DNA of 64,000 nucleotides from a virus (IMGVR_UViG_3300021142_000007:32001-96000); one strand, 5' to 3'; positions 22,004 through 46,594 are shown, counted from the first letter of the stretch. Numbers and translations: made by a program. The notes: generated by a model from the sequence alone, not told the origin.

Positions 22004-22075
22004 TACCGCGTAGGGAATTCGAATCCCTGACTTCTCCGTGAAAGGGAGACGACTTAACCACTTGTCGAACGCGGC
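22004..22075 (-). tRNA. tRNA-Glu (anticodon TTC)
   Basis: Full cloverleaf: GCCGCGT/ACGCGGT, TCTCC-CTTTCAC-GGAGA, AGGGA-TTCGAAT-TCCCT; CCA not encoded. Confidence 0.93.
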
Positions 22076-22092
22076 GTGTAAAAATTGATGAA

Positions 22093-22314: not shown

Positions 22315-22328
22315 TGTTTTTATTTTAA

Positions 22329-22562: not shown

Positions 22563-22612
22563 TGCGTTTATTTGTTGATGCAAACATAAGAAGTATTTTT
22601 GAATAAACCAAA

Positions 22613-22882: not shown

Positions 22883-22894
22883 ACCCCAATGATA

Positions 22895-23128
22895 CTACGA
22901 TATAGGTGTTAAGTCAAGCTTTAATTCATTTCTGCCTTTGTTGCTCTTCAATGGAAATCCGTGACGATTCCATTGACAGGAGCAAAAACCATCATGCAAG
23001 CTGGGCTTTCCGAACACTGGGTCTTTTACTTGACCGACAATGATATTATCCAAAGCAATCCAACGCAAGTTACGAACTTCGTGTCCGTCTATGGTCTGCG
23101 TTACTTTATTTAAAGCTTCTTGTTCCAT
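22895..23128 (-). CDS. hypothetical protein
   Basis: ATG at 23128 after promoter. Confidence 0.6.
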   Translation of the reverse strand: MEQEALNKVTQTIDGHEVRNLRWIALDNIIVGQVKDPVFGKPSLHDGFCSCQWNRHGFPLKSNKGRNELKLDLTPIS

Positions 23129-33760: not shown

Positions 33761-33840
33761 CCCAGAAAAAGCCAAACGTGCTCGTCTGGGTACAAAAAGG
33801 GGCTTATAACGCTGGCTATGTACACAAATGTGTACATTGT

Positions 33841-34098
33841 TTATATTTGGTGGGTCATAGTACTAGGGTATCCACCTGTTCCGTCACCAAGTCCGCATGA
33901 TGAGTATCTTTTTATTCTTGGTATGAATGCTCGTCCATGTCCAATTCCGCTTCCAGTGCCACATCCATCTCCAAAGCAGTAGCAAGTCTTTCTTGGTCCT
34001 CCTTGTCCAGAGCTACGTCCGAAACCTATACCTTCGTTAATATATCGTCCCATTCTTACGATACAATCCTTATTATGTCCATATGAAAATACTTGCAT
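33841..34098 (-). CDS. Gly-rich paralog 1
   Basis: Leader MQVFSYGHNKD + (G-x)n. Confidence 0.75.
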   Translation of the reverse strand: MQVFSYGHNKDCIVRMGRYINEGIGFGRSSGQGGPRKTCYCFGDGCGTGSGIGHGRAFIPRIKRYSSCGLGDGTGGYPSTMTHQI

Positions 34099-34105
34099 AG
34101 GCTTA

Positions 34106-34360
34106 TTATCTATGTTTTATTATGCCTTTAAAAGCACCATCTCCATGACCTCTTCCACGTCCATCGCCATTGCCATATCCATCAGCACGGCCAGAGCCAG
34201 AGCCACGACCATAACCATTGCCAGAGCCATCGCCTTTACCATTACCAATTCCCCATCCGCTTCCATTTCCATTACAAATCACATATTGATTAATCATATA
34301 ATAGCTATTATCTGAATTAAGCCCAGTATCCCTGTTCTTTCCGTATGACTTAATTTCCAT
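34106..34360 (-). CDS. Gly-rich paralog 2
   Basis: Leader MEIKSYGKNRD + (G-x)n. Confidence 0.8.
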   Translation of the reverse strand: MEIKSYGKNRDTGLNSDNSYYMINQYVICNGNGSGWGIGNGKGDGSGNGYGRGSGSGRADGYGNGDGRGRGHGDGAFKGIIKHR

Positions 34361-34365
34361 ATATC

Positions 34366-34632
34366 TTATCCTTTACCATTACCAAATCCATAACCACAAT
34401 AAAAACTAAACCATCCGTTTCCATTACCCCAGCCATCTCCATTTCCACATCCATTTCCTTTCCCACCTCCTTTATCGCCTCCCCATCCACCACCATTATT
34501 AAATGCAATGCCGTTTCCCATACCCTTGCCATATCCATTGCCATATCCATCAGCACGGCCTGAACCATTTGATTGGTAGTCATCGATGCTATTTAATTCG
34601 TCTGGGTTCTTTCCGTATGATAGTATTTCCAT
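34366..34632 (-). CDS. Gly-rich paralog 3
   Basis: Leader MEILSYGKNPD; ATG 34632. Confidence 0.8.
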   Translation of the reverse strand: MEILSYGKNPDELNSIDDYQSNGSGRADGYGNGYGKGMGNGIAFNNGGGWGGDKGGGKGNGCGNGDGWGNGNGWFSFYCGYGFGNGKG

Positions 34633-34637
34633 ATATC

Positions 34638-34892
34638 TTATCCTTTTCCATATTCCCAACCATAACCTGCACCATTACCATATCCATTACCCCAGCCACT
34701 GCCATCACCAAAGCCATTGCCAGAAGCATGGTTATCTTTTTGGCCTCGGCCAAATCCACTACCAGTGCCACTGCCATCGCCACTGCCCCAGCAATTGCTA
34801 TAGGTTTTACCAGAGCCAGAGCCAGAGCCAGTTCCCCATGTTCCATTACCCCACTTGGTATCTTCGTTCTTACCGTATGACCTTATTTCCAT
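34638..34892 (-). CDS. Gly-rich paralog 4
   Basis: Leader MEIRSYGKNED. Confidence 0.8.
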   Translation of the reverse strand: MEIRSYGKNEDTKWGNGTWGTGSGSGSGKTYSNCWGSGDGSGTGSGFGRGQKDNHASGNGFGDGSGWGNGYGNGAGYGWEYGKG

Positions 34893-34903
34893 ATCTTATT
34901 TAC

Positions 34904-35107
34904 CTATTCGTCAATATATCCATTTCCATCACCAGTACCGCCACCCCATCCATAACCGCTACCATCGCCCCATCCAGAGCCACGACCTTCACCCCAGCCA
35001 CGTCCATTACCCATGCCAAAACAGATTCCAGAGCCACTGCCCTCGCCATTGGTATTGCCATTACCATATATTATATCTTGATTTTTTCCGTATGATAGTA
35101 TTTCCAT
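34904..35107 (-). CDS. Gly-rich paralog 5
   Basis: Leader MEILSYGKNQD. Confidence 0.8.
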   Translation of the reverse strand: MEILSYGKNQDIIYGNGNTNGEGSGSGICFGMGNGRGWGEGRGSGWGDGSGYGWGGGTGDGNGYIDE

Positions 35108-35112
35108 ATTCT

Positions 35113-35400
35113 TTATTCTTTGCTTGTTCTATCACCTTTACCAGAACCACTTCCCCAGCCAATACCAGAACCATAGCCATAGCCCGTGCCAGTGCCATCA
35201 CCAAATCCATTTCCATCACCCCATACATTACCAAGGCCAATAGCATTACCATCGCCAGAGCCATCACCAAAGCCATTGCCACTACCCATTCCCCAGCACC
35301 AGCCATGGCTAGAACCAGAGCGATAGCCAGAACCATAACCAGAGCCAGAGCCTTTGCCCTCTCTTATATCTTCGTTATGTCCGTATGATGTTATTTCCAT
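35113..35400 (-). CDS. Gly-rich paralog 6
   Basis: Leader MEITSYGHNED. Confidence 0.8.
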   Translation of the reverse strand: MEITSYGHNEDIREGKGSGSGYGSGYRSGSSHGWCWGMGSGNGFGDGSGDGNAIGLGNVWGDGNGFGDGTGTGYGYGSGIGWGSGSGKGDRTSKE

Positions 35401-35405
35401 ATTCT

Positions 35406-35657
35406 TTATCCATTTCCATTACCCTCGCCACCTCCATCTCCTCTGCCAAATGAAACGCAAGTTCGGCTTCTATCCTTACCAGCACCGCTACCCCATCCAC
35501 TTGCATCATCATATCCATGACCGCTACCACTGGCATTAGCGTTACCGCCACCATAGCCCTCGCCGCCACTAAAACCTATACCATCACCACTTCCGTAGCA
35601 ATAGGTTATTCCATCGTATACAGCGTCTTTATACTTTCCGTATGAGAATACTTGCAT
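35406..35657 (-). CDS. Gly-rich paralog 7
   Basis: Leader MQVFSYGKYKD. Confidence 0.8.
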   Translation of the reverse strand: MQVFSYGKYKDAVYDGITYCYGSGDGIGFSGGEGYGGGNANASGSGHGYDDASGWGSGAGKDRSRTCVSFGRGDGGGEGNGNG

Positions 35658-35660
35658 ATG

Positions 35661-35906
35661 CTAGAAGTTATCGATTAATTTCTTTATTTCTTGGATATCA
35701 TGGTTAAGCGGTTCCAGTTGTTTAAGGACCACTATTCTGCCATCTGACCATTCTTGAACAACTTGTCTTTGTTCGTTCATATAAACGATTGGTCGGCCAT
35801 TGGAGAAGGCTTCTTGTCTGATTTTTTCGGACATGTCTTTTCCAAGTTCTGAAAAGAATTCACGTATCTTTTCAGGGCTTTCATCTTCTATTTGGTCTAG
35901 GGTCAT
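35661..35906 (-). CDS. hypothetical protein
   Basis: ORF coupled to neighbours. Confidence 0.6.
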   Translation of the reverse strand: MTLDQIEDESPEKIREFFSELGKDMSEKIRQEAFSNGRPIVYMNEQRQVVQEWSDGRIVVLKQLEPLNHDIQEIKKLIDNF

Positions 35907-36286
35907 ATCTTGCTTATGTTTTTTGCAGCTTCTTTGAGTTCTTCTAGGGTGAAAAGACCAAGCATGTTAATCCTAGTGTTTAGGTCAGCTTCTGAGGTTT
36001 CCATAGCAATTTCATCATGAATATATTGCAAGATTTGCCATTGACGTGTTGTTAGTATTCCACGACTCTCTGGTTTAAGTATGATGTCAGTGTCAACATC
36101 AATAAGGTGGGTAATAGCCTTGTTGCTTAACTTATACTTATCTGGTTCTAATAGGTTCTTACCAGCCACGCACATCTTGCCATCATCTGTAAGGTATTGA
36201 CACTTAGTGCCATCGAAGCCACAGGTTGATGGGTTAGCGTAGTATGGTGCTATTTGTTCCAGTGCGAAGTCTTTCGGTGATTTCAT
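35903..36286 (-). CDS. hypothetical protein
   Basis: CQYLTDDGKMCVAG...LQYIHD. Confidence 0.65.
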   Translation of the reverse strand: MKSPKDFALEQIAPYYANPSTCGFDGTKCQYLTDDGKMCVAGKNLLEPDKYKLSNKAITHLIDVDTDIILKPESRGILTTRQWQILQYIHDEIAMETSEADLNTRINMLGLFTLEELKEAAKNISKI

Positions 36287-36319
36287 ATTATTTGATTTAG
36301 GATACAAAGATATGAAATA

Positions 36320-36559
36320 CTATTGAGAATTCCAAGCAATTCTAATTATTTCTTCTTTTTCGGTATATGCTTGTCCATTTCCGTTACCTTCTACTAAGCC
36401 AAATCCTCTACCATAACCAGAGGAATAACCATTACCAGACCCATTTACTCTTCCATAACCCCATCCATATCCAATACCACTACCCATACCATCACCTAGA
36501 CCACGACAACTAAATGAATTAGCGATATCATCGTTCTCACCGTATGAATTAATTTCCAT
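36320..36559 (-). CDS. Gly-rich paralog 8
   Basis: Leader MEINSYGENDD; ATG 36559. Confidence 0.8.
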   Translation of the reverse strand: MEINSYGENDDIANSFSCRGLGDGMGSGIGYGWGYGRVNGSGNGYSSGYGRGFGLVEGNGNGQAYTEKEEIIRIAWNSQ

Positions 36560-36560
36560 G

Positions 36561-36797
36561 CTAGTATTTATATTTACTTGCGGTACCACAACCATCACCA
36601 TCTCCAGACCCATCTCCACCACCGCACCCATACCCAGTGCCTTTACCAAGACCCCATCCATCACCAGTGCCTTGTGAAGGAGAATAACCATATAGGTTTC
36701 CTTTTCCAGAACCCTTACCAGCCGAGTATGCTATCGCCATAAACCTACCAAGGATATATAAAGAATCTGGATATCTTCCGCATGAATTAATTTCCAT
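36561..36797 (-). CDS. Gly-rich paralog 9
   Basis: Leader MEINSCGRYPD. Confidence 0.8.
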   Translation of the reverse strand: MEINSCGRYPDSLYILGRFMAIAYSAGKGSGKGNLYGYSPSQGTGDGWGLGKGTGYGCGGGDGSGDGDGCGTASKYKY

Positions 36798-36798
36798 A

Positions 36799-37443
36799 CT
36801 AATAGTTATTTAAAAATTCTTGAGCACTAGGTGTGTTATTTGGACCCTTAAGAATGCATTGTCCTTCATATATCAGCAATAGCTTAAGAACTTCTTCTCT
36901 TGTGAATGTGTCTTTACCTTTCTTAATAGTGATAGTGTTATCTTTAAGGTTTACTTTAAGGACTTCTTTTTCTTCTTCAATTTCCCTCATATTATCTTTA
37001 TGATAATTAGCACCTCTTTCTCCCCATTTATTTATTCCGATATAACAAATTGTATATTCAACCATCACCTCTGTAATAGGAGTATTTTTGTTATACATCT
37101 CTACATACTTAAGAATAAAGTCTTCAGAGGGAGAAGGAAGTCCAAGAGATGTGTCGGTAGAGGCTATGATTTTTTTTGTAGCACTACTATAGCTATTTGC
37201 CCAATCTAAAACATCTTTAGTATACATTCTCTTTAGAGTTTTACCGTCTCCTAATACTACATAGTCTCCTTCTTTTATTTCATCATCTGAAAGGATATAT
37301 AGATGTTGATTTACATAGGTGTAATTACCAATTGTTTGCTTCTTAAATTGATTTTTATAAATCAAATCTTTATTTTTATAAAGGTAGATGCGGCTTTCAT
37401 TTTCAGTAGAAAGCATGATTACTTTATGTGTTTTAAATTTCAT
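36799..37443 (-). CDS. conserved phage hypothetical protein
   Basis: QHLYILSDDEIKEGD...KKIIASTD motifs. Confidence 0.7.
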   Translation of the reverse strand: MKFKTHKVIMLSTENESRIYLYKNKDLIYKNQFKKQTIGNYTYVNQHLYILSDDEIKEGDYVVLGDGKTLKRMYTKDVLDWANSYSSATKKIIASTDTSLGLPSPSEDFILKYVEMYNKNTPITEVMVEYTICYIGINKWGERGANYHKDNMREIEEEKEVLKVNLKDNTITIKKGKDTFTREEVLKLLLIYEGQCILKGPNNTPSAQEFLNNY

Positions 37444-37503
37444 ATCTTGATATTTAGGTCACGAAGGTAATAAAAAGTATTGATATAACCAAACTTATTG
37501 GTA

Positions 37504-37728
37504 TTATTTTCCTTTACAACTTCCTTTACCTATTCCCCAACAAATACCTCTGCCTTTTCCAAGACCTGCTCCATCTCCTGTTCCAGCACCTCTGCCATAT
37601 CCATTGCCATTTGCTGCGGCATTTCCAATCCCATAACCATATCCATAACCACCCATATTGGCATATCCAGAACCAGAACCACGGCCCCAAACTATATCTT
37701 TATTCTTTCCATATGAATTAATTTCCAT
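37504..37728 (-). CDS. Gly-rich paralog 10
   Basis: Leader MEINSYGKNKD; ATG 37728. Confidence 0.8.
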   Translation of the reverse strand: MEINSYGKNKDIVWGRGSGSGYANMGGYGYGYGIGNAAANGNGYGRGAGTGDGAGLGKGRGICWGIGKGSCKGK

Positions 37729-37732
37729 ATTT

Positions 37733-37978
37733 CTATCCATTTTCGTTTTCATAACCACTACCATCACCAACACCAGAGCTGTTACCATTTCCATCTCCAA
37801 ATCCGTCACCAGATAGTATTAGCGTTGAAATACCATCACCACTTCCCCATCCATATCCAGCAGAACGACCATCCCCATATCCAATACCTCTTCCATCGCC
37901 AATGCCATGACCATCTGAGCGTTTAAGTACCCAACTTGAATCGGTATCTTCGTTCTTTCCGTATGAGAATACTTCCAT
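37733..37978 (-). CDS. Gly-rich paralog 11
   Basis: Leader MEVFSYGKNED. Confidence 0.8.
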   Translation of the reverse strand: MEVFSYGKNEDTDSSWVLKRSDGHGIGDGRGIGYGDGRSAGYGWGSGDGISTLILSGDGFGDGNGNSSGVGDGSGYENENG

Positions 37979-37983
37979 ATATC

Positions 37984-38223
37984 TTAACCCTCTCCTTTTC
38001 CATCACCGCTACCATCAGAAACTCCATAGCATAATCCCCAGCCACTACCAGTTCCTCTACCACTTCCGTTTCCGTGTGACCAATTTGTTAATTTACCATT
38101 AAAGCTTCCAGCACCAGAAACACCATTGGCATCATATGCACAACCATTGCCATCGCCATCACCACTTGCCTTTCCGCAACCCCATTTGGTATCTTTATTC
38201 TTTCCGTATGATAGTATTTCCAT
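37984..38223 (-). CDS. Gly-rich paralog 12
   Basis: Leader MEILSYGKNKD. Confidence 0.8.
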   Translation of the reverse strand: MEILSYGKNKDTKWGCGKASGDGDGNGCAYDANGVSGAGSFNGKLTNWSHGNGSGRGTGSGWGLCYGVSDGSGDGKGEG

Positions 38224-38226
38224 ATA

Positions 38227-38457
38227 TTATTTACCTGTTCCGTCACCAAATCCATTACCGTTTCCATATCCGCTAGACATGCAAAAACTCTCATATACGA
38301 TATATCCATAACCCATGCTTGTTCCATCACCACGACCATTGCCACAAGCGTCACTATAATCAAGACGTATTCCATGCATAGTTCGATATACCCCTCTGAA
38401 GTATTGTGGGTCGCTTCTATGTATATCTGGATTCCTACCGTATGAATTTATTTGCAT
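38227..38457 (-). CDS. Gly-rich paralog 13
   Basis: Leader MQINSYGRNPD; ATG 38457. Confidence 0.75.
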   Translation of the reverse strand: MQINSYGRNPDIHRSDPQYFRGVYRTMHGIRLDYSDACGNGRGDGTSMGYGYIVYESFCMSSGYGNGNGFGDGTGK

Positions 38458-38458
38458 A

Positions 38459-38716
38459 TTAGTACTCCCACATAGATACATAACCAAATCCAGTACCATT
38501 TCTAGTTCCACCGCCACTTCCAAATCCATCTCCGTTTCCACTTCCACCGCTACTTCCACAACCATTACCAGTACCCCATCCATCACCGCCACCGCAGCTA
38601 TTACCGTAACCATTACCAGAGCCATAAGAATAACCATCAGAGCCACCATAGCCACCATAGCCAGTGCCAAAACCAAACTTGGTATCTTGATTCATACCAT
38701 ACGAAAATATAGTCAT
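38459..38716 (-). CDS. Gly-rich paralog 14
   Basis: Leader MTIFSYGMNQD. Confidence 0.8.
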   Translation of the reverse strand: MTIFSYGMNQDTKFGFGTGYGGYGGSDGYSYGSGNGYGNSCGGGDGWGTGNGCGSSGGSGNGDGFGSGGGTRNGTGFGYVSMWEY

Positions 38717-38904
38717 ATATTAGTCTTTGCTGGTTTTAAAATCGATATAGAATATTATAAGACATGTTGCACATGCTATTTCTAGTCCTATATCGTTATT
38801 AGTTGCTGTTATACCAGTACCAACTGCTAGTATAATCATAGGTATAATAAGTAGTTTTTTCATTTAAGCTTTTTTGAGTTAATACAAAGGTAACAATAAT
38901 TTTT

Positions 38905-39165
38905 TTAAGAAACAAATATATTAAGATTATCTTCTCCTTCACCACAGCCATTTCCTTTACCACTGCCATTACCCCAACCATTTCCAGAACCATTGCCATA
39001 GCCATAGCCCGTGCCACTACCCCAGCCATCACCCCATCCATAGCCATTTCCTTTACCACTGCCATTGCCATAACCATTTCCTTGTCCTGTAGTGCTTCCT
39101 CTACCATCTGCGGTTCCAAACCCAAAGAATAAGTCTAGGTTCTTTCCATATGATTTTACTTCCAT
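38905..39165 (-). CDS. Gly-rich paralog 15
   Basis: Leader MEVKSYGKNLD. Confidence 0.8.
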   Translation of the reverse strand: MEVKSYGKNLDLFFGFGTADGRGSTTGQGNGYGNGSGKGNGYGWGDGWGSGTGYGYGNGSGNGWGNGSGKGNGCGEGEDNLNIFVS

Positions 39166-39182
39166 ATATCTATCGTTTTTAG

Positions 39183-39439
39183 CTATTCAAAATAATTACC
39201 TGCTCCATCACCACTGCCTTCGCCCCATCCATTGCCAGTGCCAGAACCTCTACCATCGCCCTTGTTCCAGCGATTACCATGACCACCACCATCAGCTGGT
39301 CCATAACTCATACCATATCCAAATAAAAAGCCTCGAATTGGTTCATTTTGACCGCAGCCAAAACAAACCAATCCAAAGCTATGATTTTTTTATCAAGGGT
39401 ATCTCTACCTGTAGTTATTCCGTTAGATAGAACATTCAT
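39183..39439 (-). pseudogene. Gly-rich paralog 16, frameshifted (probably at an A7 run)
   Basis: ATG 39439 gives leader-like MNVLSNG; the Gly-rich frame needs one extra base; A7 at 39385-39391. Confidence 0.6.
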
Positions 39440-40165
39440 TTAGGACTGAGCAATAAGCTTTGCGAAGTATTGTTCAGCTGTAAGAGGCACGATTTCACCT
39501 GAAGGTATGATTTCAGAGTCCATTTCAAACAAGAGAACATCGCCTTGTCTCTTGATGTACTTGATATGTGGTATCATGTTCTCGTATACACGAATGGTTG
39601 AAGCAATAGCTTCCAGCGCACCATTATGAGCATACTTTTCTTCAATCCACAACCAGTGTTCTTTGTTGGTTGTTGTACACCAGCACTTCACGCAGTAGTT
39701 ATCCTCGATACCCAGCGTAGAGCAGTCTATCTTATGGAGTTCATAGATGACATCGTAGTTTCTTAGCTTATACGAGCCATCTTCGTTGTATACACGATGT
39801 GTTACGTTTTTACCTTCAACGTTAATCCTAGTATTACCCAAGTTCTGAATCATTTCAGATACGTTTATGGAACCAAACACGATTGCTCTGAAGGTAGAAT
39901 TTGAAATTTCAAATGCTTCCTTGTATGAGAAAGGCTTTGCTTGATTGAAGTAATACAATAGAAGGTCTGCTTGATTCAAGCGGTCATTTGCTTCTAGTTG
40001 TATAAGAGACTCTTTGAGAGGTCTTATGAAGGAATCCATGAAGCGTTCTTTATTACGCATAAGGCCCTTGAGGTATCTCGCGAAGTCAGGCAAGCTAACA
40101 TCATCGATGTATGAGTCTTTTTCGATATCGTATTCGATATTTGGAAGAAGAGGAATTTTTTGCAT
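39440..40165 (-). CDS. DUF6745-related protein with C-terminal RQGD motif; paralog of 16424..17101
   Basis: YELH...VKCWCTTTNKEHWLWI...ALEAIAST...RQGDV...LIAQS. Confidence 0.7.
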   Translation of the reverse strand: MQKIPLLPNIEYDIEKDSYIDDVSLPDFARYLKGLMRNKERFMDSFIRPLKESLIQLEANDRLNQADLLLYYFNQAKPFSYKEAFEISNSTFRAIVFGSINVSEMIQNLGNTRINVEGKNVTHRVYNEDGSYKLRNYDVIYELHKIDCSTLGIEDNYCVKCWCTTTNKEHWLWIEEKYAHNGALEAIASTIRVYENMIPHIKYIKRQGDVLLFEMDSEIIPSGEIVPLTAEQYFAKLIAQS

Positions 40166-40233
40166 ATGATAATTTTTTAATGAATTAGTAAAATGGTCAT
40201 GACGAATGTGTCATGACCATTGGGGTTACTGGA

Positions 40234-40554
40234 TTAGAGAGTCCACACAGGAATCATGTCCAGATTTTTTTTGCCGTTTTCAGAAACGGTGATTACTTCG
40301 ATTGCCATCAGCTTGATGCTTGACACTTCAAGCGTGAATTTGCATTCGGTTGGTTTCGCAGAACCATTTTCAGACAAGTCTGAAAGCGTATTGGCACCAG
40401 CCCAAGACCAGAGTCTCCTTGTTTGTACGAGTTCAACAGCGTAGTGACCGTCATGAGCAGGTTCACATGACTTAAGGAAACCAAAGTGAACACCTGCTGA
40501 GTAGGTTCTGATACATACGTAAGGGTAGCCATCTGCGTTAACGTTTTTCTTCAT
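40234..40554 (-). CDS. DUF6948-like protein
   Basis: YVCIRTYSAGVHFG...RRLWSWAGANTLSDLSENG. Confidence 0.75.
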   Translation of the reverse strand: MKKNVNADGYPYVCIRTYSAGVHFGFLKSCEPAHDGHYAVELVQTRRLWSWAGANTLSDLSENGSAKPTECKFTLEVSSIKLMAIEVITVSENGKKNLDMIPVWTL

Positions 40555-40662
40555 TTTTTGTTTTTTTGTTAGTTAGTTAATTAATGATACAAAGGTATAA
40601 AATTTATTTTAAAGATGCAAGTATTTCTGAATTTTTTTTCGAAATAATTTCAGAATGAACTT

Positions 40663-40905
40663 CTAGTCTGAAATGGAGTACCCTTTAAGTCTACCACAAC
40701 TGATATTAGAAAAGATACCACCTTGGCCAGAACCAGAGCCATGTCCAAAACCACAGCCCACACCATCACCTTTACCATTACCAATTCCGCTACAGCTTGA
40801 ACTACCAACTCCGCTACCAAATCCGCTTCCACGACCACTTCCATCACCTTTTTTATAAGGCGAAATAATACTATCTGGATTTCTACCGTATGACTTTATT
40901 TCCAT
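40663..40905 (-). CDS. Gly-rich paralog 17
   Basis: Leader MEIKSYGRNPD. Confidence 0.8.
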   Translation of the reverse strand: MEIKSYGRNPDSIISPYKKGDGSGRGSGFGSGVGSSSCSGIGNGKGDGVGCGFGHGSGSGQGGIFSNISCGRLKGYSISD

Positions 40906-40910
40906 ATAAC

Positions 40911-41153
40911 TTATCCTTTACCATTTCCATAACCATCTCCACGACCAAAAGACCTTACCCTAGACTCAGCGAGAATACAATAACCCATATCAGTACCAGT
41001 GCCATCACCATAACCCTTACCATATCCAGTGCCATCACCCTTACCATATCCAGTGCCATAACCCTTTCCATTTCCTTTGGTACCGCCCCATCCATCAGCA
41101 TGGCCCCAGCCACAGAATATATCTTGGTTTCTACCGTATGACTTTATTTCCAT
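40911..41153 (-). CDS. Gly-rich paralog 18
   Basis: Leader MEIKSYGRNQD. Confidence 0.8.
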   Translation of the reverse strand: MEIKSYGRNQDIFCGWGHADGWGGTKGNGKGYGTGYGKGDGTGYGKGYGDGTGTDMGYCILAESRVRSFGRGDGYGNGKG

Positions 41154-41158
41154 ATAAC

Positions 41159-41416
41159 TTATCCTTTACCATTTCCCTTTCCACCGCCATCACCACGACC
41201 TTCTGCTCGGCATCTTCCATTAGCACCACCAAATCCATCTCCCCATCCAAGTCCCTGTCCAGTTCCCCAATTATAACCATCATCATAGCCATCACCGCTG
41301 CCATCACCCATACCACCTCCATCTCCATCTCCGTTACCATTACCACATCCATCAGCATCGCCATGAGACCAACCCCATTCTTGTTTAACTATTCTTCCGT
41401 GTGATAATACTTCCAT
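41159..41416 (-). CDS. Gly-rich paralog 19
   Basis: Leader MEVLSHGR. Confidence 0.75.
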   Translation of the reverse strand: MEVLSHGRIVKQEWGWSHGDADGCGNGNGDGDGGGMGDGSGDGYDDGYNWGTGQGLGWGDGFGGANGRCRAEGRGDGGGKGNGKG

Positions 41417-41486
41417 GTCTCGTATTTAAGAAATAAAAAAAGGCTATATATTACTATAGCCTTTTGTTTTATTCATCTTAGATGAA

Positions 41487-41723
41487 TTAGTCAAAAGCGT
41501 TTACCATTTGACCAGTCAAAGGGTTCACCTCTTGCTGTGTCAACTTGATTACGTGTGCGCTTTCGGTTACTACTACACCGTGTTCACCGTGGAGTACTAC
41601 GCCTTGGCCTTCGCATTCAAGGACAAGTCCGTTAAGGTTGTCAAGCTTACGCTTAAGGGTAACTTCACCATTGATGGTGTGTGTGTTGGTCGATGGTTCT
41701 AGGACCAGTGTGTTTTTGCTCAT
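41487..41723 (-). CDS. small His-containing beta protein; paralog of 19202..19462
   Basis: NTH...HGEH...QQEVNPL...FD; ATG 41723. Confidence 0.7.
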   Translation of the reverse strand: MSKNTLVLEPSTNTHTINGEVTLKRKLDNLNGLVLECEGQGVVLHGEHGVVVTESAHVIKLTQQEVNPLTGQMVNAFD

Positions 41724-41726
41724 AGC

Positions 41727-42198
41727 TTTTTGTTTTTGGTTTTTATTAATAATACAAAGGTACGTATAATATTTGAGAAATTCAAGCTTTATTCGAAATT
41801 TATTTTTTATATATTGTATATCAATCGAATAAGCATTGCCCCACATGCCATACCTATTATAAATATGCATATCAAGGATAAAAGGAAGCTTGTGTTTTCG
41901 TTCATGGGTTAAACGATTTATGAAAATCTACTTAAGAAGTTAAGAAACGTTAAGGCTATTAACAGAATGTTTATTATTGGTAGCAAAGAAATACCAAATG
42001 CTAGCATCCCTAGATAAAGGTTCTTCCAGTTTCTAGGATTGCGTATGGCATTACCCAATAGCAATTTATCAATGTAATAGCTTCTATAGAGCCAGTATAG
42101 TCCACATAGGACACCAATCGTGTATATCATAGTATTTTTGTTTTTGGTTTTTATTAATAATACAAAGGTACGTATAATATTTGAGAAATTCAAGCTTT
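41727..42198. repeat. exact 64-bp direct repeat of a promoter unit (41727-41790 and 42135-42198)
   Basis: Identical sequence containing the reverse complement of TACCTTTG. Confidence 0.9.
41918..42130 (-). CDS. small membrane protein
   Basis: Two hydrophobic segments. Confidence 0.6.
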   Translation of the reverse strand: MIYTIGVLCGLYWLYRSYYIDKLLLGNAIRNPRNWKNLYLGMLAFGISLLPIINILLIALTFLNFLSRFS

Positions 42199-42818
42199 TA
42201 GGAAATTTTTTTGTATATTTTTTCGATATCTTTGAGATGTACTATTCCTTCTTCTATAGGTAAGTAACTTATACCATATAAAGACATCAACTTATATAGC
42301 TGCTTTATATGTTCTTTTGGATATGACTTACAACCGAACTTGACGTTAGATTCAGATACTTCCATGCGATGACCAAGTATCTGAACGCCATTATGTTTAT
42401 CTATTTCTTGCTGTGTTGCTTTTCTGAAGTAATTCGGATACTGGTCAATATATAAAACATGACCTTCATCTGAAATGGCAACCTTAAAATTACTCTTAGT
42501 GTTTCCATTAGGGGCACCAATAAGGTCAACTCTAATAACGTCACCAACATGAGCCGCAGCTTTATACATGGGATGGTTTGTGTTATTACCGCCATCTCCA
42601 AGGACGTATATGTAGTCACCAACCTTATATTCGTCTTCATATACCGCATCAAACCATATATCAAGAACCTTAGCGTCTTGCGCCTTGTCTATGCTTACGA
42701 TATCGTTTGATACTAAGAAACATCCGTTATCATATATGTAAGAATCTATACCAAAGAACTTCCCAGCATCCGCTGCGCTTACGGTTCCATTAAGCTTATA
42801 TCCGATTATTTTTTTCAT
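42198..42818 (-). CDS. hypothetical protein
   Basis: 206-aa ORF with own promoter. Confidence 0.7.
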   Translation of the reverse strand: MKKIIGYKLNGTVSAADAGKFFGIDSYIYDNGCFLVSNDIVSIDKAQDAKVLDIWFDAVYEDEYKVGDYIYVLGDGGNNTNHPMYKAAAHVGDVIRVDLIGAPNGNTKSNFKVAISDEGHVLYIDQYPNYFRKATQQEIDKHNGVQILGHRMEVSESNVKFGCKSYPKEHIKQLYKLMSLYGISYLPIEEGIVHLKDIEKIYKKIS

Positions 42819-42877
42819 TGTTTTTTGTTTTATGCTACAAAGGTACTAATAATTTTTGTAATTTCCAAATAAGTAGT

Positions 42878-43186
42878 TTACATATCCAAATTACGTCTGG
42901 AGATATCGATGCTGTCGCTTACGCTATACTTATACTTCGTTACGTTAATGATAAAACCCTTGATTGAATCACCAGCCTTATACTGATTATATGTTTTTTG
43001 ACATACTTCATACTCATGAGCCTCTGAACCATCATAGACTTGTAAGTAATACGTATCGTATTTACCACCAAACATTTCTTTTTTAAGAACAACAACGGTT
43101 GTATCGGTTAGTGTTCTGTATGTTTTGTAATCGTTGCAGCTTGACAACAAAAGCAGAGAGAATAAGATAAGGGTTATTTTTTTCAT
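42878..43186 (-). CDS. putative lipoprotein
   Basis: MKKITLILFSLLLLSSC lipobox. Confidence 0.7.
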   Translation of the reverse strand: MKKITLILFSLLLLSSCNDYKTYRTLTDTTVVVLKKEMFGGKYDTYYLQVYDGSEAHEYEVCQKTYNQYKAGDSIKGFIINVTKYKYSVSDSIDISRRNLDM

Positions 43187-43188
43187 AT

Positions 43189-44118
43189 TTATTTTTTTCT
43201 TGTTGGTATTAAACAAAGGTTGTCAGTAGAATCTTTCTTTATTTCCCAATCAAATTTATCATTTAGATAGAACGCTTTGTTTACATATTCAGACCCACTT
43301 CTAATAGCAATCATTGAATCAACTTTATACCCATCTTTTTTAAACAATTCTAACTCATCAACCCTACCCTTGCTCAAATCAATTTCTTTGGTTTTCAAGA
43401 ACGGAAATTCTTTTTCCATTCTTTGTTTCCAAAGACCACAGCAATTATTTTCGTAGTATTGTTTTATGAAGTCTTCGGTTGTTTCACCCGTGAAGCCATC
43501 AACATTTTCTCTTACGAGTTTTTGTTGTTCTGCATTCATGGCTTTAAACCCTTCCTGAAGGAATGATAGATTGATACTTATCTTTTTCATTTGTTTTGGT
43601 GTTTCTTGTTTTAAAACGTGTTTGATAAATTGTTCTGTTGTTATTTTTTCATACCCAGAAAAGTCTTCATCATCTAAAAATTCTCTTTCTTCATCACCAT
43701 AATAGTAGCTACCATCTGGGTGATATGATAGTATTAACTCATTTTCATGTACCGTAATACCAGCAAGAAAGGTAGCCACGCTATTTTTCCATTCATTGAG
43801 CATTTGTTTGTTCTCTGGTGTAACAACACAATACCATTTTTCTGGAAGTTCAACGCCATTTACAATTTCATCCCACTCTTCAAGGGTTAGTTCTACGGTA
43901 CCTTCAGGAAACTCCCCAAGTTCAACACGCCAACCCGTATTTCCACAATCACAAGTTCTTAATAATCCCACTCCGTAGTAAGCATCAAGACACCCAGACC
44001 AAGGAGAATCAGCATATCCATTTTTCTTGCAGTAGTCATTAAGCCAAGATATGTATTTATCCCATAAAGGGTTATTTGAATCTCTTTTAATTGCAAAGAG
44101 ATTAGGTAGTTGTTTCAT
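43189..44118 (-). CDS. hypothetical protein
   Basis: 309-aa ORF with own promoter. Confidence 0.7.
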   Translation of the reverse strand: MKQLPNLFAIKRDSNNPLWDKYISWLNDYCKKNGYADSPWSGCLDAYYGVGLLRTCDCGNTGWRVELGEFPEGTVELTLEEWDEIVNGVELPEKWYCVVTPENKQMLNEWKNSVATFLAGITVHENELILSYHPDGSYYYGDEEREFLDDEDFSGYEKITTEQFIKHVLKQETPKQMKKISINLSFLQEGFKAMNAEQQKLVRENVDGFTGETTEDFIKQYYENNCCGLWKQRMEKEFPFLKTKEIDLSKGRVDELELFKKDGYKVDSMIAIRSGSEYVNKAFYLNDKFDWEIKKDSTDNLCLIPTRKK

Positions 44119-44169
44119 TGTTTTTTTGTTTATGATACAAAGGTAATAATACTTTTTGTAATTACCAAA

Positions 44170-45003
44170 TTATTCTTCAATAATACTTAAAATACCACCA
44201 AAATGGTCGGTGTCTTTAGCTTGTCTTTTACCATCCTTAACTAAGTAATCTTTTGCTAGGTCAATTGCACAGCAAGCCGTATTATAACTTTTTTTCTTGT
44301 ATTCTTCGTTGAATGAATTAAGCCATTTTTCATCACATGATGTTAGGATGTCGTAGGCTTCATCAACAGATTCTGGTATGAGAAGCTTAACCAGCTTTTT
44401 TCTGAGGTATGTTTTTTCTCTTTGTGTCATTAGTTCATATGCATTAGGGTTTCAGCAACACCTACCTTAAAGGTTTTAACACCTTCTTTTCTATCTAAGC
44501 TGGGGATGTATGCAGATACGATATAACCTTCTAGGTAGGGTTCACACTTAAGAATAATGGTTTCATCTACGTTCCACTTTTCTTTTTCGTGAATGATTTG
44601 TTTTATCGCATTTTCAAAATTTCTTGTCATTAGTCCAGTATATCTGTTATGTCATCAAAAACATCTTCTAATGCTTCGCTGAAGTCTATGCGAAATAATA
44701 CTAGTATCGTTACTAGGATTATAGCTATGAGTATACAAGTATAAATCATAGGTTATTTATTATTTTTGATAGCATTAGTTCTCTAATCTTTATCTTAGAA
44801 GATATACCTTCAGCAGTCTCGGTATAACCATATTCTTTGGCTTCTGCCAATTCGATATATAGGTCATCCAATTCATCCTTCAGGCTTTCAGCCAAATCAT
44901 AATCGTTTATGGGTTCGGTATTTGATTCATCCTTAGAAAGGATACTAATAGCTATTAAGAACCCCAAAAAACCGCATCCAAGCATGTATAGTATTTCCAT
45001 CAT
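44170..45003 (-). CDS. small hypothetical genes (44170-44430, 44430-44630, 44746-45003)
   Basis: ORF track. Confidence 0.6.
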
Positions 45004-45072
45004 ATAGTTTCTGATATTTTTTTTTTGAATTATAATGCAAAGGTATGTAATCTTTTTCAGACTTACAAGCTT

Positions 45073-45339
45073 TTATAAATAAAAATTTTTCCAATTACCA
45101 CTACCATCGCCACTACCATCGCCACCACCATTACCACTTCCTTCTCCATGTCCCCAGCCATGTCCAGAGCCATAACCTTCGCCAGAGCCATGACCCCATC
45201 CATTTCCGTTTCCAATGCTATTTCCATCTCCCAACCCACTTCCATCTCCACCTCCCCATCCACCAGCATCGCCAGAGCCATCAGCCCAAAAATGAACATG
45301 GGTTGTATCTAAGTTCTTTCCGTATGAATTAATTTCCAT
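45073..45339 (-). CDS. Gly-rich paralog 20
   Basis: Leader MEINSYGKNLD. Confidence 0.8.
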   Translation of the reverse strand: MEINSYGKNLDTTHVHFWADGSGDAGGWGGGDGSGLGDGNSIGNGNGWGHGSGEGYGSGHGWGHGEGSGNGGGDGSGDGSGNWKNFYL

Positions 45340-45935
45340 TAGTATTTGGCCCAGTATCTAAGTACATAATTTCTTGTTTCTTCTGGCAAGTCAGAATAGT
45401 TCGCTCCTCTGCTATACCAAGCTTGAAAGTTTCCCCAACCCCAGTTATAGATGATTAGCTTATAGTTAAGGCTATTTGCAATACCAGCTTGCTTGAGGTA
45501 CAATGGAATTTGTTCTCCTAGCAACCATTCACCTATCTTGACATTGTATTTTCTTATGAATAAGTCTTCATAGGAATAGCGTTCTTTTGGATGATTGATG
45601 TTCCATTCATCCAAGCCAGCTTGTGTAACTTGCATAGAACCAACAGCGTTCATAACCGATGTCTTGTAGTCCTTATCGCCAGACTCAATCATACGAACTT
45701 GGTCATAGTCTAGGTCCGTAAGGAATTTGCTTGCGCTATCGCGTGTTACAACAAATGGCTTTAAGACCTTCGGAATGGATGTATACTTCAGACTAAATCC
45801 TGTACTGAAGCCAATCATGACGAACATGATGAAAGCGAAGGTTATTGGCTTCATCATTATTTTCCAATAAGGGACGTGTACTTCTCTAAGAAGTTCGTCT
45901 CTGTAGTATAGCGTTTTTGTTTTTAGTAATTTCAT
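45339..45935 (-). CDS. membrane-anchored lytic transglycosylase (SLT/lysozyme-like)
   Basis: TM segment; IES, AVGSMQVT, YNWG, ETRNYV motifs. Confidence 0.75.
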   Translation of the reverse strand: MKLLKTKTLYYRDELLREVHVPYWKIMMKPITFAFIMFVMIGFSTGFSLKYTSIPKVLKPFVVTRDSASKFLTDLDYDQVRMIESGDKDYKTSVMNAVGSMQVTQAGLDEWNINHPKERYSYEDLFIRKYNVKIGEWLLGEQIPLYLKQAGIANSLNYKLIIYNWGWGNFQAWYSRGANYSDLPEETRNYVLRYWAKY

Positions 45936-45980
45936 GATACAAAGGTAAAATTAATAAATGAAAACTGCAAGTATATCTAC

Positions 45981-46358
45981 TTATTTTTTTTCTGGATTAT
46001 CTTTAAGTTCTTCTTCGACCCGTTCTTTGTTCTTGAAACAGTGACCAATGCCCATCTTTCCCCAATTATCAATAAAATGCTTATGTATTTCGGATTGAAC
46101 AAAAGCCTTATCTCTTGGCTTCTGCCAGTTAGGGTCCGTAACGAAGACTTCCGCTCTTGATAATTGGAAGTTTGATTCGGTCAATAGCTTTTGAAGCATA
46201 TGGTATCTTATGCTCAACAACTTAGTGAATTTGTCCCAAGCCGAATCCGTTTCAGCAAGTACGAATAACAAACCATTTTCAAAAGAAGATAAGCTTGCTT
46301 CTTTATTTCGAACCGCATCAACCATTCTAGCTATTTCATCAAAGTCTTTTTGTTTCAT
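45981..46358 (-). CDS. hypothetical protein
   Basis: ORF. Confidence 0.6.
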   Translation of the reverse strand: MKQKDFDEIARMVDAVRNKEASLSSFENGLLFVLAETDSAWDKFTKLLSIRYHMLQKLLTESNFQLSRAEVFVTDPNWQKPRDKAFVQSEIHKHFIDNWGKMGIGHCFKNKERVEEELKDNPEKK

Positions 46359-46594
46359 GTGTGTTTTAGTTTTTTATTTGTGTATCCAAAGTCTTTTATA
46401 AAGTGACCCTTACCACGACCAAACCCATCTCCCTTGCCATCACCAGTTCCATTTGAACACTTATGATTAATACTCAAACGATAGCCTCTTCCATCACCAT
46501 TACCAGCACCATTTCCTTTTCCAGAAACAGTTCCTCGTCCAACGCCACGCCCATCTAGGGTTCTCGCATCAATTCCGTTTGTGAGTACTATCAT
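46355..46594 (-). CDS. Gly-rich paralog 21 (divergent leader)
   Basis: MIVLTNGID + (G-x)n. Confidence 0.65.
   Translation of the reverse strand: MIVLTNGIDARTLDGRGVGRGTVSGKGNGAGNGDGRGYRLSINHKCSNGTGDGKGDGFGRGKGHFIKDFGYTNKKLKHT

What the first reader, a model, noticed from the sequence alone, without database searches (positions are those of the whole stretch)
33841..46594. About 21 paralogous (Gly-X)n small proteins with a conserved MEIxSYGKNxD leader, clustered around a DUF6948-like gene
Seen: 21 co-oriented genes of roughly 65-95 codons in tight tandem runs (33841-35657, 36320-36797, 37504-39439, 40663-41416) plus two singletons. Gaps are often only a few nt (TAA-gatat-ATG). They share an 11-aa leader M-[EQ]-[IV]-x-S-Y-G-[KR]-N-x-D, then a variable linker and a body with Gly at about every second residue (X = N/D/S/Y/W/C/K/R). 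Gly codons are mixed and the bodies are diverged, so this is protein-level selection, not a DNA microsatellite. Recalled: single GxGxG-rich genes often lie next to DUF6948 genes in phages. Inference: a constant leader plus variable body suggests a diversified repertoire handled by one partner (DUF6948-like or DUF6745-related protein). Possible roles are decoys of host defence sensors, precursor peptides, or polyglycine-II/low-complexity assemblies. Best candidate for an undescribed system here.
Basis: partly seen in the sequence, partly recalled or inferred. Interest (0 to 1): 0.9.

Follow-up and report, generated by a model that had tools for sequence, protein, structure and literature searches.

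The report
Amplified phage Gly-X protein array
A large T4-like freshwater phage carries 21 copies of a small floppy protein gene with glycine at every second residue, an extreme multiplication of a widespread but unstudied phage gene that normally sits as one copy behind a small Sm-like protein gene.

Summary
Observation confirmed. The window holds 20 intact and 1 frameshifted minus-strand genes (64-95 aa). Each has an 11-aa head, M-[EQ]-[IV]-x-S-Y-G-[KRH]-N-x-D, and a (Gly-X)n body. All 21 copies in the 135-kb contig lie here.

They look like real genes. G-x-G count is 385 against 176±9 in shuffles. Strain orthologues give dN/dS 0.56 (body) and 0.30 (head). All 10 internal indels are 2 or 4 residues. 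AlphaFold gives pLDDT 31, so they are predicted disordered.

In 63 of 80 IMG/VR DUF6948 loci and 4 of 6 GenBank phage loci a Gly-X ORF starts right behind DUF6948, often nested 13 nt inside its end. DUF6948 models as an Sm/LSm-like barrel (pLDDT 94.6, Z 6.9).

This window is an amplified, diversified, head-extended variant of that pair. Four related lineages have DUF6948 next to the same 241-aa gene; three carry arrays with their own fixed heads.

Function is inferred only: detachable low-complexity partners of the Sm-like protein acting on, or mimicking, nucleic acids early in infection. The T4 capsid-targeting and RiPP readings are weaker. "DUF6745-related" is not supported by sequence.

This scan has noted the module before on other DNA. 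My full-text searches for the domain names found no paper.

The parts
33841..34098 (-). Gly-X gene 1 (85 aa, head MQVFSYGHNKD), last gene of the 7-gene run
34106..34360 (-). Gly-X gene 2 (84 aa)
34366..34632 (-). Gly-X gene 3 (88 aa from the conserved ATG)
   Evidence: identical protein in L006 and L008
34638..34892 (-). Gly-X gene 4 (84 aa)
   Evidence: a strain variant has a 2-aa indel
34904..35107 (-). Gly-X gene 5 (67 aa)
35113..35400 (-). Gly-X gene 6 (95 aa)
   Evidence: 6-nt insertion and 66-nt skip in run X4
35406..35657 (-). Gly-X gene 7 (83 aa), first of the 7-gene run, directly behind the 81-aa gene 35661-35906
36320..36559 (-). Gly-X gene 8 (79 aa)
36561..36797 (-). Gly-X gene 9 (78 aa, head MEINSCGRYPD)
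37504..37728 (-). Gly-X gene 10 (74 aa)
37733..37978 (-). Gly-X gene 11 (81 aa)
37984..38223 (-). Gly-X gene 12 (79 aa)
   Evidence: P0001
38227..38457 (-). Gly-X gene 13 (76 aa, long non-repeat linker)
   Evidence: P0005
38459..38716 (-). Gly-X gene 14 (85 aa, head MTIFSYGMNQD)
38905..39165 (-). Gly-X gene 15 (86 aa); AlphaFold2 mean pLDDT 31.1
39183..39439 (-). Gly-X copy 16, frameshifted at an A7 run; divergent head MNVLSNGI; starts directly behind the 241-aa gene
   Evidence: intact in L011 2-244; A7 form in X3 and X4 contigs
39440..40165 (-). 241-aa protein of a phage family with no Pfam model; next to DUF6948 in 6 of 79 related loci and fused to it in P0186
40234..40554 (-). DUF6948 protein (106 aa), modelled as an Sm/LSm-like barrel; the only copy in the contig
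40590..40597 (-). TACCTTTG promoter-like motif (Bacteroidota -7 type) upstream of the DUF6948 gene
40663..40905 (-). Gly-X gene 17 (80 aa)
   Evidence: one-unit 248-nt deletion in run X4
40911..41153 (-). Gly-X gene 18 (80 aa)
41159..41416 (-). Gly-X gene 19 (85 aa, head MEVLSHGRIVK)
   Evidence: 12-nt deletion in run X4
41438..41465 (.). terminator-like hairpin between the 78-aa gene and the 3-gene Gly-X run
41487..41723 (-). 78-aa protein (p78), usual neighbour of the 241-aa family (70 of 79 loci)
45073..45339 (-). Gly-X gene 20 (88 aa); its ATG overlaps the stop of the 198-aa SLT-like gene by 1 nt
46355..46594 (-). Gly-X gene 21 (79 aa, divergent head MIVLTNGI, basic, pI 10.2)
38885..38892 (-). 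TACCTTTG promoter-like motif ahead of the 47-aa gene and the 5-gene run 38716-37504
33772..33789 (-). terminator-like hairpin just after the last gene of the 7-gene run

Best explanation
Shown: the region is a lineage-specific amplification (20 intact genes and 1 broken one) of the small (Gly-X)n protein gene that follows the DUF6948 gene in many phages. There it is usually a single copy whose ATG is nested in the last codons of DUF6948. The products are translated, weakly constrained and predicted to be disordered. The 11-residue head is the constant part. Bodies diversify by point changes, by gain or loss of Gly-X units, and by unequal crossing-over between paralogues in the conserved head and junction DNA. 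Inferred: the head is an elaborated form of the family's short M-[ED]-x-[IVL] head. Inferred mechanism: the Gly-X proteins act with the Sm/LSm-like DUF6948 protein as detachable low-complexity tails or ligands. This would parallel the Gly-rich C-terminal domain of Acinetobacter Hfq, or the Arg-Gly tails of eukaryotic Sm proteins, but in trans. Host-type promoters suggest early expression. The proteins would tune or mimic nucleic-acid binding, and the array would supply tails of different charge and aromatic content (pI 4.1 to 10.2). The host is probably a Bacteroidota bacterium.
For: Coding status. G-x-G is 385 against 176 +/- 9 in shuffles. In 15 strain-orthologue pairs the body has sd 44.7, nd 86.3, dN/dS 0.56, and the head has sd 9.5, nd 14.5, dN/dS 0.30. 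All 10 of 10 internal indels are 2 or 4 aa. Run X4 shows +6, -12 and 66-nt changes and a 248-nt one-gene deletion across a 49-nt shared stretch. Head positions 4 and 10 vary freely, and Y, G, K, N and I use two or three codons.

Linkage. A Gly-X ORF starts within -60 to +400 nt of the DUF6948 match end, same strand, in 63 of 80 IMG/VR loci (57 of 69 with at least 300 nt downstream). Only 9 of 80 have one elsewhere. The same holds in 4 of 6 GenBank phage loci. In 36 of 67 cases the ATG is nested 13 nt inside the DUF6948 end.

This window. It has one DUF6948 gene with Gly-X genes on both sides and a vestigial 6-codon head (V-D-S-L-I-Q-stop) at the canonical overlap position.

Related arrays. Of 79 loci with the 241-aa family, 6 have DUF6948 directly upstream. 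5 of those 6 carry 2 to 6 Gly-X genes with their own fixed heads (MEVISNG, MNIKISKG, MIDTKLNING). L139 has the same gene order as here.

Structure. DUF6948 models at pLDDT 94.6. The 18 best VIA rows (23 of the best 25) and the listed Foldseek rows are Sm/LSm proteins; the best is 6ppn_H, Z 6.9, rmsd 3.2, 74 aligned. The Gly-X protein has pLDDT 31.1.

Context. TAnnTTTG occurs 162 times against 84 expected. SD-like cores precede 4 of 148 other genes. Neighbours of ordinary pairs are SSB, RecT, ERF, Sipho_Gp157, NinG and RusA.

Analogy. The abstract of PMC11617691 describes an Sm core with 'GGFGGQ' repeats.
Against: No binding, RNA or virion data exist. The Sm-like match is middling: Z under 8 can be only a common arrangement, and Foldseek E is 0.06. 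DUF6948 shows no Sm sequence motif in my reading of the alignment. Here the Gly-X genes are not overlapped with DUF6948; most lie in other operons up to 6 kb away. X residues differ from the ordinary partner: S/D/N/Y/K/W/R here against S 35%, Y 25%, D 22%. Homology of low-complexity bodies therefore cannot be proven. L136 has DUF6948 and the 241-aa gene but no Gly-X gene. The Ser codon of the head is TCA in 49 of 52 members against 25% genome-wide, so part of the head conservation is at DNA level or comes from gene conversion. Only the 80 best of at least 564 DUF6948 loci were examined.
Confidence: 0.55

Rival explanations
1. T4-type capsid targeting. The 11-aa head would be a capsid-targeting sequence that loads the Gly-X proteins into the prohead core. 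They would then be injected with the DNA as a variable set of anti-defence internal proteins, like T4 IPI, IPII and IPIII.
For: The contig has a T4-type head module in T4 order. It holds portal Gp20 (7.5e-72), Peptidase_S77 prohead protease (85.4 bits), an acidic 393-aa scaffold-like protein and Gp23 capsid protein (2.6e-73). The head is short, constant and ends in Asp. Bodies are hypervariable and differ between strains. Passages of PMC3012670 describe T-even internal proteins as a highly diverse set sharing only a conserved CTS. A disordered chain could pass a tail channel (inference).
Against: The head has no [LI]-x-E site, the T4 gp21 motif as I recall it. The capsid protein's N-terminal part does contain L-T-E. 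No other protein in the 135-kb contig carries the head. Similar short heads occur on Gly-X partners in contigs that are mostly 34-58 kb, too small for T4-like phages. The genes lie among small genes behind host-type promoter motifs.
Confidence: 0.12
2. Nucleic-acid-mimic decoys. The extended Gly-X chains, with Asp and aromatic side chains about 7 A apart, would imitate ssDNA or RNA. They would jam host defence sensors or nucleic-acid-binding proteins. The array would be an arms-race repertoire, and DUF6948 would be only a chaperone or antidote.
For: Ordinary partners are acidic and rich in Tyr, with almost no Lys or Arg. They sit in ssDNA-recombination early regions. Gene content turns over fast between strains. 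dN/dS is relaxed at 0.56.
Against: 6 of the 20 window proteins are basic (pI 8.6-10.2) and most are near neutral, which fits mimicry poorly. No PADLOC or anti-defence family matched. There is no direct evidence.
Confidence: 0.15
3. RiPP-like precursor peptides. A constant leader would be recognised by one modifying enzyme and the Gly-rich cores would vary, as for prochlorosins or microcin B17.
For: The leader-plus-variable-core layout fits. G-S-G and G-C-G motifs are present. There are many paralogues.
Against: No YcaO, radical SAM, lanthionine synthetase, protease or exporter family was found. This holds for the window's neighbours and for 101 neighbour proteins from the 62 of the 80 DUF6948 loci in which my ORF caller recovered DUF6948. 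An 11-aa leader is very short. Cys is only 2% of X. Many neighbours are unannotated, so an unknown enzyme cannot be excluded.
Confidence: 0.05
4. Non-coding hexanucleotide-periodic DNA or recombination cassettes, with ORFs that are by-products of low complexity.
For: Other frames and the opposite strand are also open across the bodies. Repeat periods are multiples of 6. The head and junction DNA is the crossover site. The Ser codon is nearly fixed.
Against: Each unit has an ATG, a conserved head and a stop, with 1-11 nt spacers. Synonymous changes exceed the neutral share: numbers I calculate 44.7 observed against about 30 expected in bodies. Codons 4 and 10 of the head vary as whole codons. 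There is no Rfam match.
Confidence: 0.03

Closest known systems
The DUF6948 (Pfam PF22253) + (Gly-Ser/Tyr/Asp)n gene pair of phages, for example Ralstonia phage NK-7 (annotated 'fibroin heavy chain-like protein'), Iodobacter phage PhiPLPE and Chlorobiaceae phage CV-1-33
   Same: Small protein with Gly at every second residue and a short M-[ED]-x-[IVL]-type head, on the same strand and in the same neighbourhood as a DUF6948 gene, and predicted disordered.
   Different: There are 21 copies instead of 1. The copies are not overlapped with DUF6948 and are spread over several operons. The head is extended to 11 residues. X is much more varied, including Lys, Arg, Trp and Asn. A 241-aa gene is inserted behind DUF6948. 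The pair itself has no described function: searches for DUF6948, DUF7666 and 'fibroin heavy chain-like' with phage found no paper.
Sm/Hfq proteins with glycine-rich low-complexity tails: Acinetobacter baumannii Hfq with 'GGFGGQ' repeats (PMC11617691, abstract read); Arg-Gly tails of eukaryotic SmD1, SmD3 and LSm4 (my knowledge)
   Same: An Sm-like barrel is associated with a Gly-rich disordered repeat. In SmD1 the repeat is also a strict Gly-X dipeptide.
   Different: Here the repeat is a separate polypeptide. DUF6948 shares only the fold, at middling Z. RNA binding is untested, and no DUF6948-Gly-X fusion was seen among the 7 longer proteins found.
T4 internal proteins with the capsid-targeting sequence (PMC3012670, passages read)
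   Same: A T4-like phage, a short constant N-terminal peptide on a diverse and strain-variable set of small proteins, and a gp21-type protease present.
   Different: No [LI]-x-E cleavage motif. The bodies are low-complexity rather than folded. The head type is shared with phages that are not T4-like. No virion data.
FET-family and RGG low-complexity domains (FUS [G/S]Y[G/S] repeats; my knowledge)
   Same: Gly with Tyr, Ser, Asp or Asn in low-complexity sequence, and predicted disorder.
   Different: A strict two-residue period, very small stand-alone proteins, and phage origin. Condensate formation is untested.

Membership tests
DUF6948-coupled phage Gly-X proteins (no Pfam model; defined here and in earlier notes of this scan) | Gly at every second residue over most of a small protein | tested here: met
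   At least 9 of 12 alternate positions are Gly in a 24-aa window in 19 stop-to-stop frames (18 of the 20 intact genes plus the frameshifted copy; 33841-34098 and 38227-38457 fall below this cut-off). G-x-G is 385 against 176 +/- 9 in shuffles.
DUF6948-coupled phage Gly-X proteins | Gene starts directly behind, and usually overlaps, a DUF6948 gene on the same strand | tested here: inconclusive
   One DUF6948 gene is present. The nearest Gly-X genes end 109 nt upstream of it and start 795 nt downstream, behind an inserted 241-aa gene. Only a vestigial 6-codon head sits at the overlap position. L139 has the same order.
DUF6948-coupled phage Gly-X proteins | Short head M-[ED]-x-[IVL] and an acidic Ser/Tyr/Asp body | tested here: inconclusive
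   The head M-E-[IV] is similar but shifted by one residue and extended. The body composition differs, being broader and including Lys, Arg and Trp.
Sm/LSm fold (for the DUF6948 partner) | Five-stranded bent beta-barrel of Sm type | tested here: inconclusive
   The AF2 model has pLDDT 94.6. The 18 best VIA-align rows (23 of the best 25) are Sm/LSm chains, but the best Z is 6.9, in the range the tool calls middling. Foldseek gives probability about 1 with E 0.06. No Sm Pfam match for the window's protein.
T4 CTS-bearing internal proteins | T4-type prohead protease and scaffold encoded by the phage | tested here: met
   Peptidase_S77 at 85.4 bits. Gp20, Gp23 and a scaffold-like gene are in T4 order.
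T4 CTS-bearing internal proteins | Leader ends in the protease site [LI]-x-E (recalled motif) | tested here: not met
   The head consensus M-E-I-x-S-Y-G-K-N-x-D lacks it in 54 of 54 members.
T4 CTS-bearing internal proteins | Protein present in virions with the leader removed | not testable with these tools
   No proteomic data. No RNA run was listed either.
RiPP precursor peptides | A leader-recognising modifying enzyme encoded nearby | tested here: not met
   No such family in the window's neighbours or in 101 neighbour proteins of DUF6948 loci. Unannotated neighbours remain.
DUF6745 (for the 241-aa protein) | Match to PF20530 | tested here: not met
   0 of 19 family members match at E up to 1. 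There is only an Atlas structural lead, TM 0.41.

The most novel reading that the evidence does not exclude
The fixed head is an address tag that docks any of about 20 different disordered Gly-X tails onto an Sm-like ring. The phage could then assemble interchangeable low-complexity ribonucleoprotein particles or condensates, or nucleic-acid mimics, during early infection. The strain-variable array would be an arms-race repertoire of such tails. This would be a split, combinatorial version of the Sm-core-plus-Gly-rich-tail design, which I know of in no virus.
Probability: 0.2. Interest if true: 0.85.

Novelty: new variant of a known kind. Interest (0 to 1): 0.62.

Why it matters
The DUF6948 + Gly-X pair is common. 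It occurs in cultured phages of Ralstonia, Iodobacter and Chlorobiaceae. My full-text searches for the domain names returned no paper.

A 21-gene, strain-variable array with a fixed head is the strongest natural hint so far about how the family works. It suggests the Gly-X part is the evolving, dosage- or variety-sensitive component, and that a short N-terminal peptide is the constant handle.

It also gives clear experiments:
- head-swap pull-downs with DUF6948;
- RNA and ssDNA binding assays;
- virion proteomics.

These could give a widespread phage gene pair a function. They could also show whether phages use Sm-like proteins with detachable low-complexity tails.

Tried and rejected
Family searches on the Gly-X proteins:
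- Pfam gave only the sub-threshold, low-complexity TrAA12 match.
- NCBIfam gave nothing meaningful, PADLOC nothing, and PHROGs only E about 0.009.
- tblastn of one member against GenBank phages found no match; the low-complexity filter was on.

Searches for relatives:
- blastn of 39440-44118 against phages gave one 3% hit.
- The search for related loci with the family alignment failed because no stretch was conserved enough. I used degenerate head DNA patterns instead. They found 0 hits in IMG/VR twice, with own records left out, and 10 metagenome loci.
- L010 and L015 gave no Gly-rich ORF with the head, so I treat them as chance.
- The big-database profile search was swamped by other Gly-Tyr-rich proteins. 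Only 8000 candidates were scored.

Partner proteins:
- Complex prediction of DUF6948 with a Gly-X protein gave no verdict (score 0.01, controls not run). This is neither support nor evidence against binding.
- PDB sequence searches with the DUF6948 and 241-aa profiles found nothing below E 0.6.
- Pfam on 10 longer 241-aa relatives found no family.
- The 241-aa family is absent from the 80 ordinary DUF6948 loci. Its usual partner is the 78-aa protein (70 of 79 loci). I therefore treat it as a separate module that lies beside DUF6948 only in a sub-lineage.

Other checks:
- No RNA holder was listed among the sequencing runs. Only DNA contigs were laid.
SD-like cores precede 6 of 20 Gly-X genes but only 4 of 148 other genes.
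- The resemblance of D-G-S-G-W strings to the colicin TolB box was considered from memory. I dropped it as expected by composition.
- My greedy ORF caller often picked wrong frames over Gly-X DNA. Its neighbour layout was used only to choose neighbours.
- Supplementary files of papers were not consulted.

Full report
1. THE OBSERVATION

ORF listing and a six-frame scan show 20 intact minus-strand ORFs of 67-95 aa. Each begins with M-[EQ]-[IV]-x-S-Y-G-[KRH]-N-x-D or a close variant, followed by a body with Gly at about every second residue.

They lie at 33841-35657 (7 genes), 36320-36797 (2), 37504-38716 (5), 38905-39165, 40663-41416 (3), 45073-45339 and 46355-46594. A 21st copy (39183-39439) is split by a frameshift at an A7 run. 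It is intact in strain contig L011. The A7 form is also present in contigs of two other runs.

A profile of the 20 proteins found 21 matches in the whole 135,399-base contig, all inside the window. A separate scan found no Gly-X ORF elsewhere.

Gaps within runs are 1-11 nt. The G-x-G count in the bodies is 385, against 176 +/- 9 (maximum 207) in 1000 shuffles. Gly codons are mixed (GGT 211, GGA 188, GGC 113, GGG 14). TRF finds only short, degenerate repeats. Rfam finds nothing.

2. ARE THEY GENES?

A degenerate head pattern found eight metagenome contigs that are strain variants of the same phage, with flanks 88-99% identical. Together with the window they give 54 distinct family members.

In 15 orthologous pairs of at least 75% nucleotide identity:
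- the bodies have sd 44.7 and nd 86.3 (dN/dS 0.56);
- the heads have sd 9.5 and nd 14.5 (dN/dS 0.30);
- all 10 internal indels are 2 or 4 residues, so both the frame and the Gly-X register are kept.

By my arithmetic on those numbers, synonymous changes exceed the neutral expectation (about 30 expected in bodies).

Contigs of run X4 add a 6-nt insertion, a 12-nt deletion and a 66-nt skip. They also show a 248-nt deletion of exactly one gene unit across a 49-nt shared stretch, plus several paralogue-to-paralogue joints.

In the head, codons 4 and 10 vary as whole codons. Tyr, Gly, Lys, Asn and Ile each use two or three codons. Ser, however, is TCA in 49 of 52 members against 25% genome-wide. 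Head conservation is therefore mainly at peptide level, with a DNA-level or gene-conversion component.

AlphaFold2 on a 41-sequence alignment gives mean pLDDT 31.1 and no secondary structure. The Atlas model has pLDDT 0.36.

3. THE PHAGE

The contig is an IMG/VR record that CheckV rates 36% complete. It carries a T4-type head module in T4 order:
- portal Gp20;
- Peptidase_S77 protease;
- an acidic scaffold-like protein;
- Gp23 capsid protein;
- a T4-type large terminase.

SD-like cores precede only 4 of 148 genes. A Bacteroidota host is therefore likely.

TACCTTTG motifs stand ahead of the DUF6948 gene, the 78-aa gene and the 5-gene run. Terminator-like hairpins follow the 7-gene run and the 78-aa gene.

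4. THE LINK TO DUF6948

40234-40554 is DUF6948 (4.3e-18) and is the only copy in the contig.

In GenBank phages, 4 of 6 distinct DUF6948 loci have a Gly-X ORF directly downstream. In Ralstonia phage NK-7 it is annotated 'fibroin heavy chain-like protein'.

For IMG/VR I took the 80 best of at least 564 DUF6948 loci:
- 63 have a Gly-X ORF starting within -60 to +400 nt of the match end on the same strand;
- this is 57 of the 69 loci that have at least 300 nt downstream;
- 5 more have it at the same place with an earlier ORF-start call;
- only 9 have a Gly-X ORF elsewhere.

In 36 of 67 cases the ATG is nested 13 nt inside the DUF6948 end. The A-TG comes from the conserved Trp codon, which gives heads beginning M-[ED]. 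Typical heads are M-[ED]-x-[IVL], 4-8 residues long. Typical bodies are S 35%, Y 25%, D 22%.

The window's DUF6948 ends I-P-V-W-T-L-stop. The overlapping frame there reads a vestigial V-D-S-L-I-Q-stop.

I scanned 101 neighbour proteins from the 62 loci in which my ORF caller recovered DUF6948. The commonest families are SSB and Sipho_Gp157 (3 members each) and Sf6_terminase (2). RecT, ERF, YqaJ, NinG, RusA, methylases and HTH proteins have one member each. There is no recurrent third partner and no RiPP enzyme.

5. THE PARTNER'S FOLD

DUF6948 models at pLDDT 94.6. The 18 best VIA-align rows (23 of the best 25), and the listed Foldseek rows, are Sm/LSm proteins. The best is 6ppn_H: Z 6.9, rmsd 3.2, 74 aligned. 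Foldseek gives probability about 1 with E 0.06.

This is a consistent but middling match. I call the protein Sm-like in shape, not a member of the family.

6. THE OTHER NEIGHBOURS

The 241-aa protein (39440-40165) belongs to a phage family with 216 representatives at E up to 0.001. None of the proteins I scanned carries a Pfam domain apart from the DUF6948 part of the fusion P0186. DUF6745 is matched by 0 of 19 members, and there is only a weak structural lead.

It is fused to DUF6948 in one metagenome protein, P0186 (49% and 40% identity). It is absent from the 80 ordinary loci.

Of 79 IMG/VR loci with this family, 6 have DUF6948 directly upstream. Three of the six are near-identical. Five of the six carry Gly-X arrays with their own fixed heads:
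- MNIKISKG (6 genes);
- MIDTKLNING with an ..IL tail (at least 6 genes);
- MEVISNG (2 genes, in the same order DUF6948, 241-aa, Gly-X, Gly-X as here).

L136 has none.

A 78-aa protein (41487-41723) is the usual neighbour of the 241-aa family. It is present in 70 of 79 loci and in 0 of the 86 loci L021-L106. A second, diverged pair lies elsewhere in this contig. I therefore read the 241-aa and 78-aa genes as a separate module that lies beside DUF6948 in one sub-lineage. In that sub-lineage amplification of Gly-X genes is common.

7. MECHANISM

Shown:
- the family is real, disordered and weakly constrained;
- it has a constant head;
- it is amplified and reshuffled by slippage and unequal crossing-over;
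- it belongs with the DUF6948-coupled Gly-X genes.

Inferred: the Gly-X proteins work with the Sm-like protein as detachable low-complexity tails or ligands that affect or mimic nucleic-acid binding early in infection. The array would offer tails from acidic to basic (pI 4.1-10.2).

The nearest functional analogy is Acinetobacter Hfq, an Sm core with 'GGFGGQ' repeats needed for function (PMC11617691, abstract). From my own knowledge, the Arg-Gly tails of Sm proteins are another. Complex prediction gave no verdict.

8. RIVALS

T4-like capsid targeting is attractive because the phage is T4-like and T-even internal proteins share only a CTS (PMC3012670, passages). Against it:
- the head lacks the recalled [LI]-x-E site;
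- no other protein in the contig bears the head;
- similar heads occur in phages too small to be T4-like.

The other three:
- The RiPP reading lacks any enzyme.
- The pure DNA-repeat reading is contradicted by the selection and indel data.
- The decoy reading remains possible but fits the basic members poorly.

9. NOVELTY

Full-text searches for DUF6948, DUF7666 and 'fibroin heavy chain-like' with phage returned no paper. Broader searches found nothing on such arrays.

This scan has noted the DUF6948 + Gly-X module many times on other DNA: 243 notes in at least 194 genomes. One is an 18-gene array with MID..N heads, and its type I saw myself in L137.

This window is, to my knowledge, the largest and most diversified array. 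It sits in a T4-like phage, has an 11-residue head, and has lost the overlap with DUF6948.

Noticed in passing
window 40234-40262 (- strand): The frame overlapping the last codons of the DUF6948 gene reads GTG-start V-D-S-L-I-Q-stop. It looks like a truncated remnant of the ordinary nested Gly-X gene head (compare the V-D-S-L heads in IMG/VR loci).
   Followed up: partly
window 39440-40165 and 41487-41723; paralogues at window 16427-16999 and about 19205-19489: A 241-aa protein and a 78-aa protein (S-T-N-T-H ... E-H-G ... T-Q-Q-E-x-N-P ... F-D) form a widespread phage gene pair with no Pfam family. They are adjacent in 70 of 79 IMG/VR loci. This contig has a second, diverged copy of each.
   Followed up: partly
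window 8900-33200 versus 38800-64000 (- strand): Two flavours of the TAnnTTTG promoter-like motif are segregated along the window. TATCTTTG dominates the left part and TACCTTTG the right part, which may mark two temporal classes.
   Followed up: no
window 39388-39394 (- strand): The A7 homopolymer is the site of the frameshift in the 21st Gly-X copy. Strain contig L011 reads through it. Slippage or phase variation was not examined.
   Followed up: partly
proteins P0006-P0063, for example P0008, P0016, P0035: Many other small metagenome proteins carry (Gly-Tyr/Ser/Asp)n tails behind different N-terminal domains. These are DUF7666 (PF24703) and an unnamed domain with an S-G-A-C motif. The Gly-X module is therefore also used as a fused tail.
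   Followed up: partly
L028 4119-5778; L037 1983-3762; L096 4283-5035; L087: Other IMG/VR phages also have small tandem runs (3-6) of Gly-X genes beside DUF6948, so amplification has happened repeatedly.
   Followed up: partly
G000 contig 20575-23079 (outside the window): The phage encodes an 834-aa ClpB/ClpA-like double AAA+ protein (phrog_4871, 2.9e-253).
   Followed up: no
G000 contig 954-2846 (outside the window): The Gp23-type capsid protein is 630 aa. The Pfam match starts only at residue 345, so there is a long N-terminal or inserted region. An L-T-E site lies near residue 60.
   Followed up: no
window 41438-41465: A perfect 11-bp hairpin with T runs on both strands (a bidirectional terminator-like site) sits between the 78-aa gene and the three Gly-X genes. 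No TAnnTTTG motif lies between the hairpin and the first of them.
   Followed up: no
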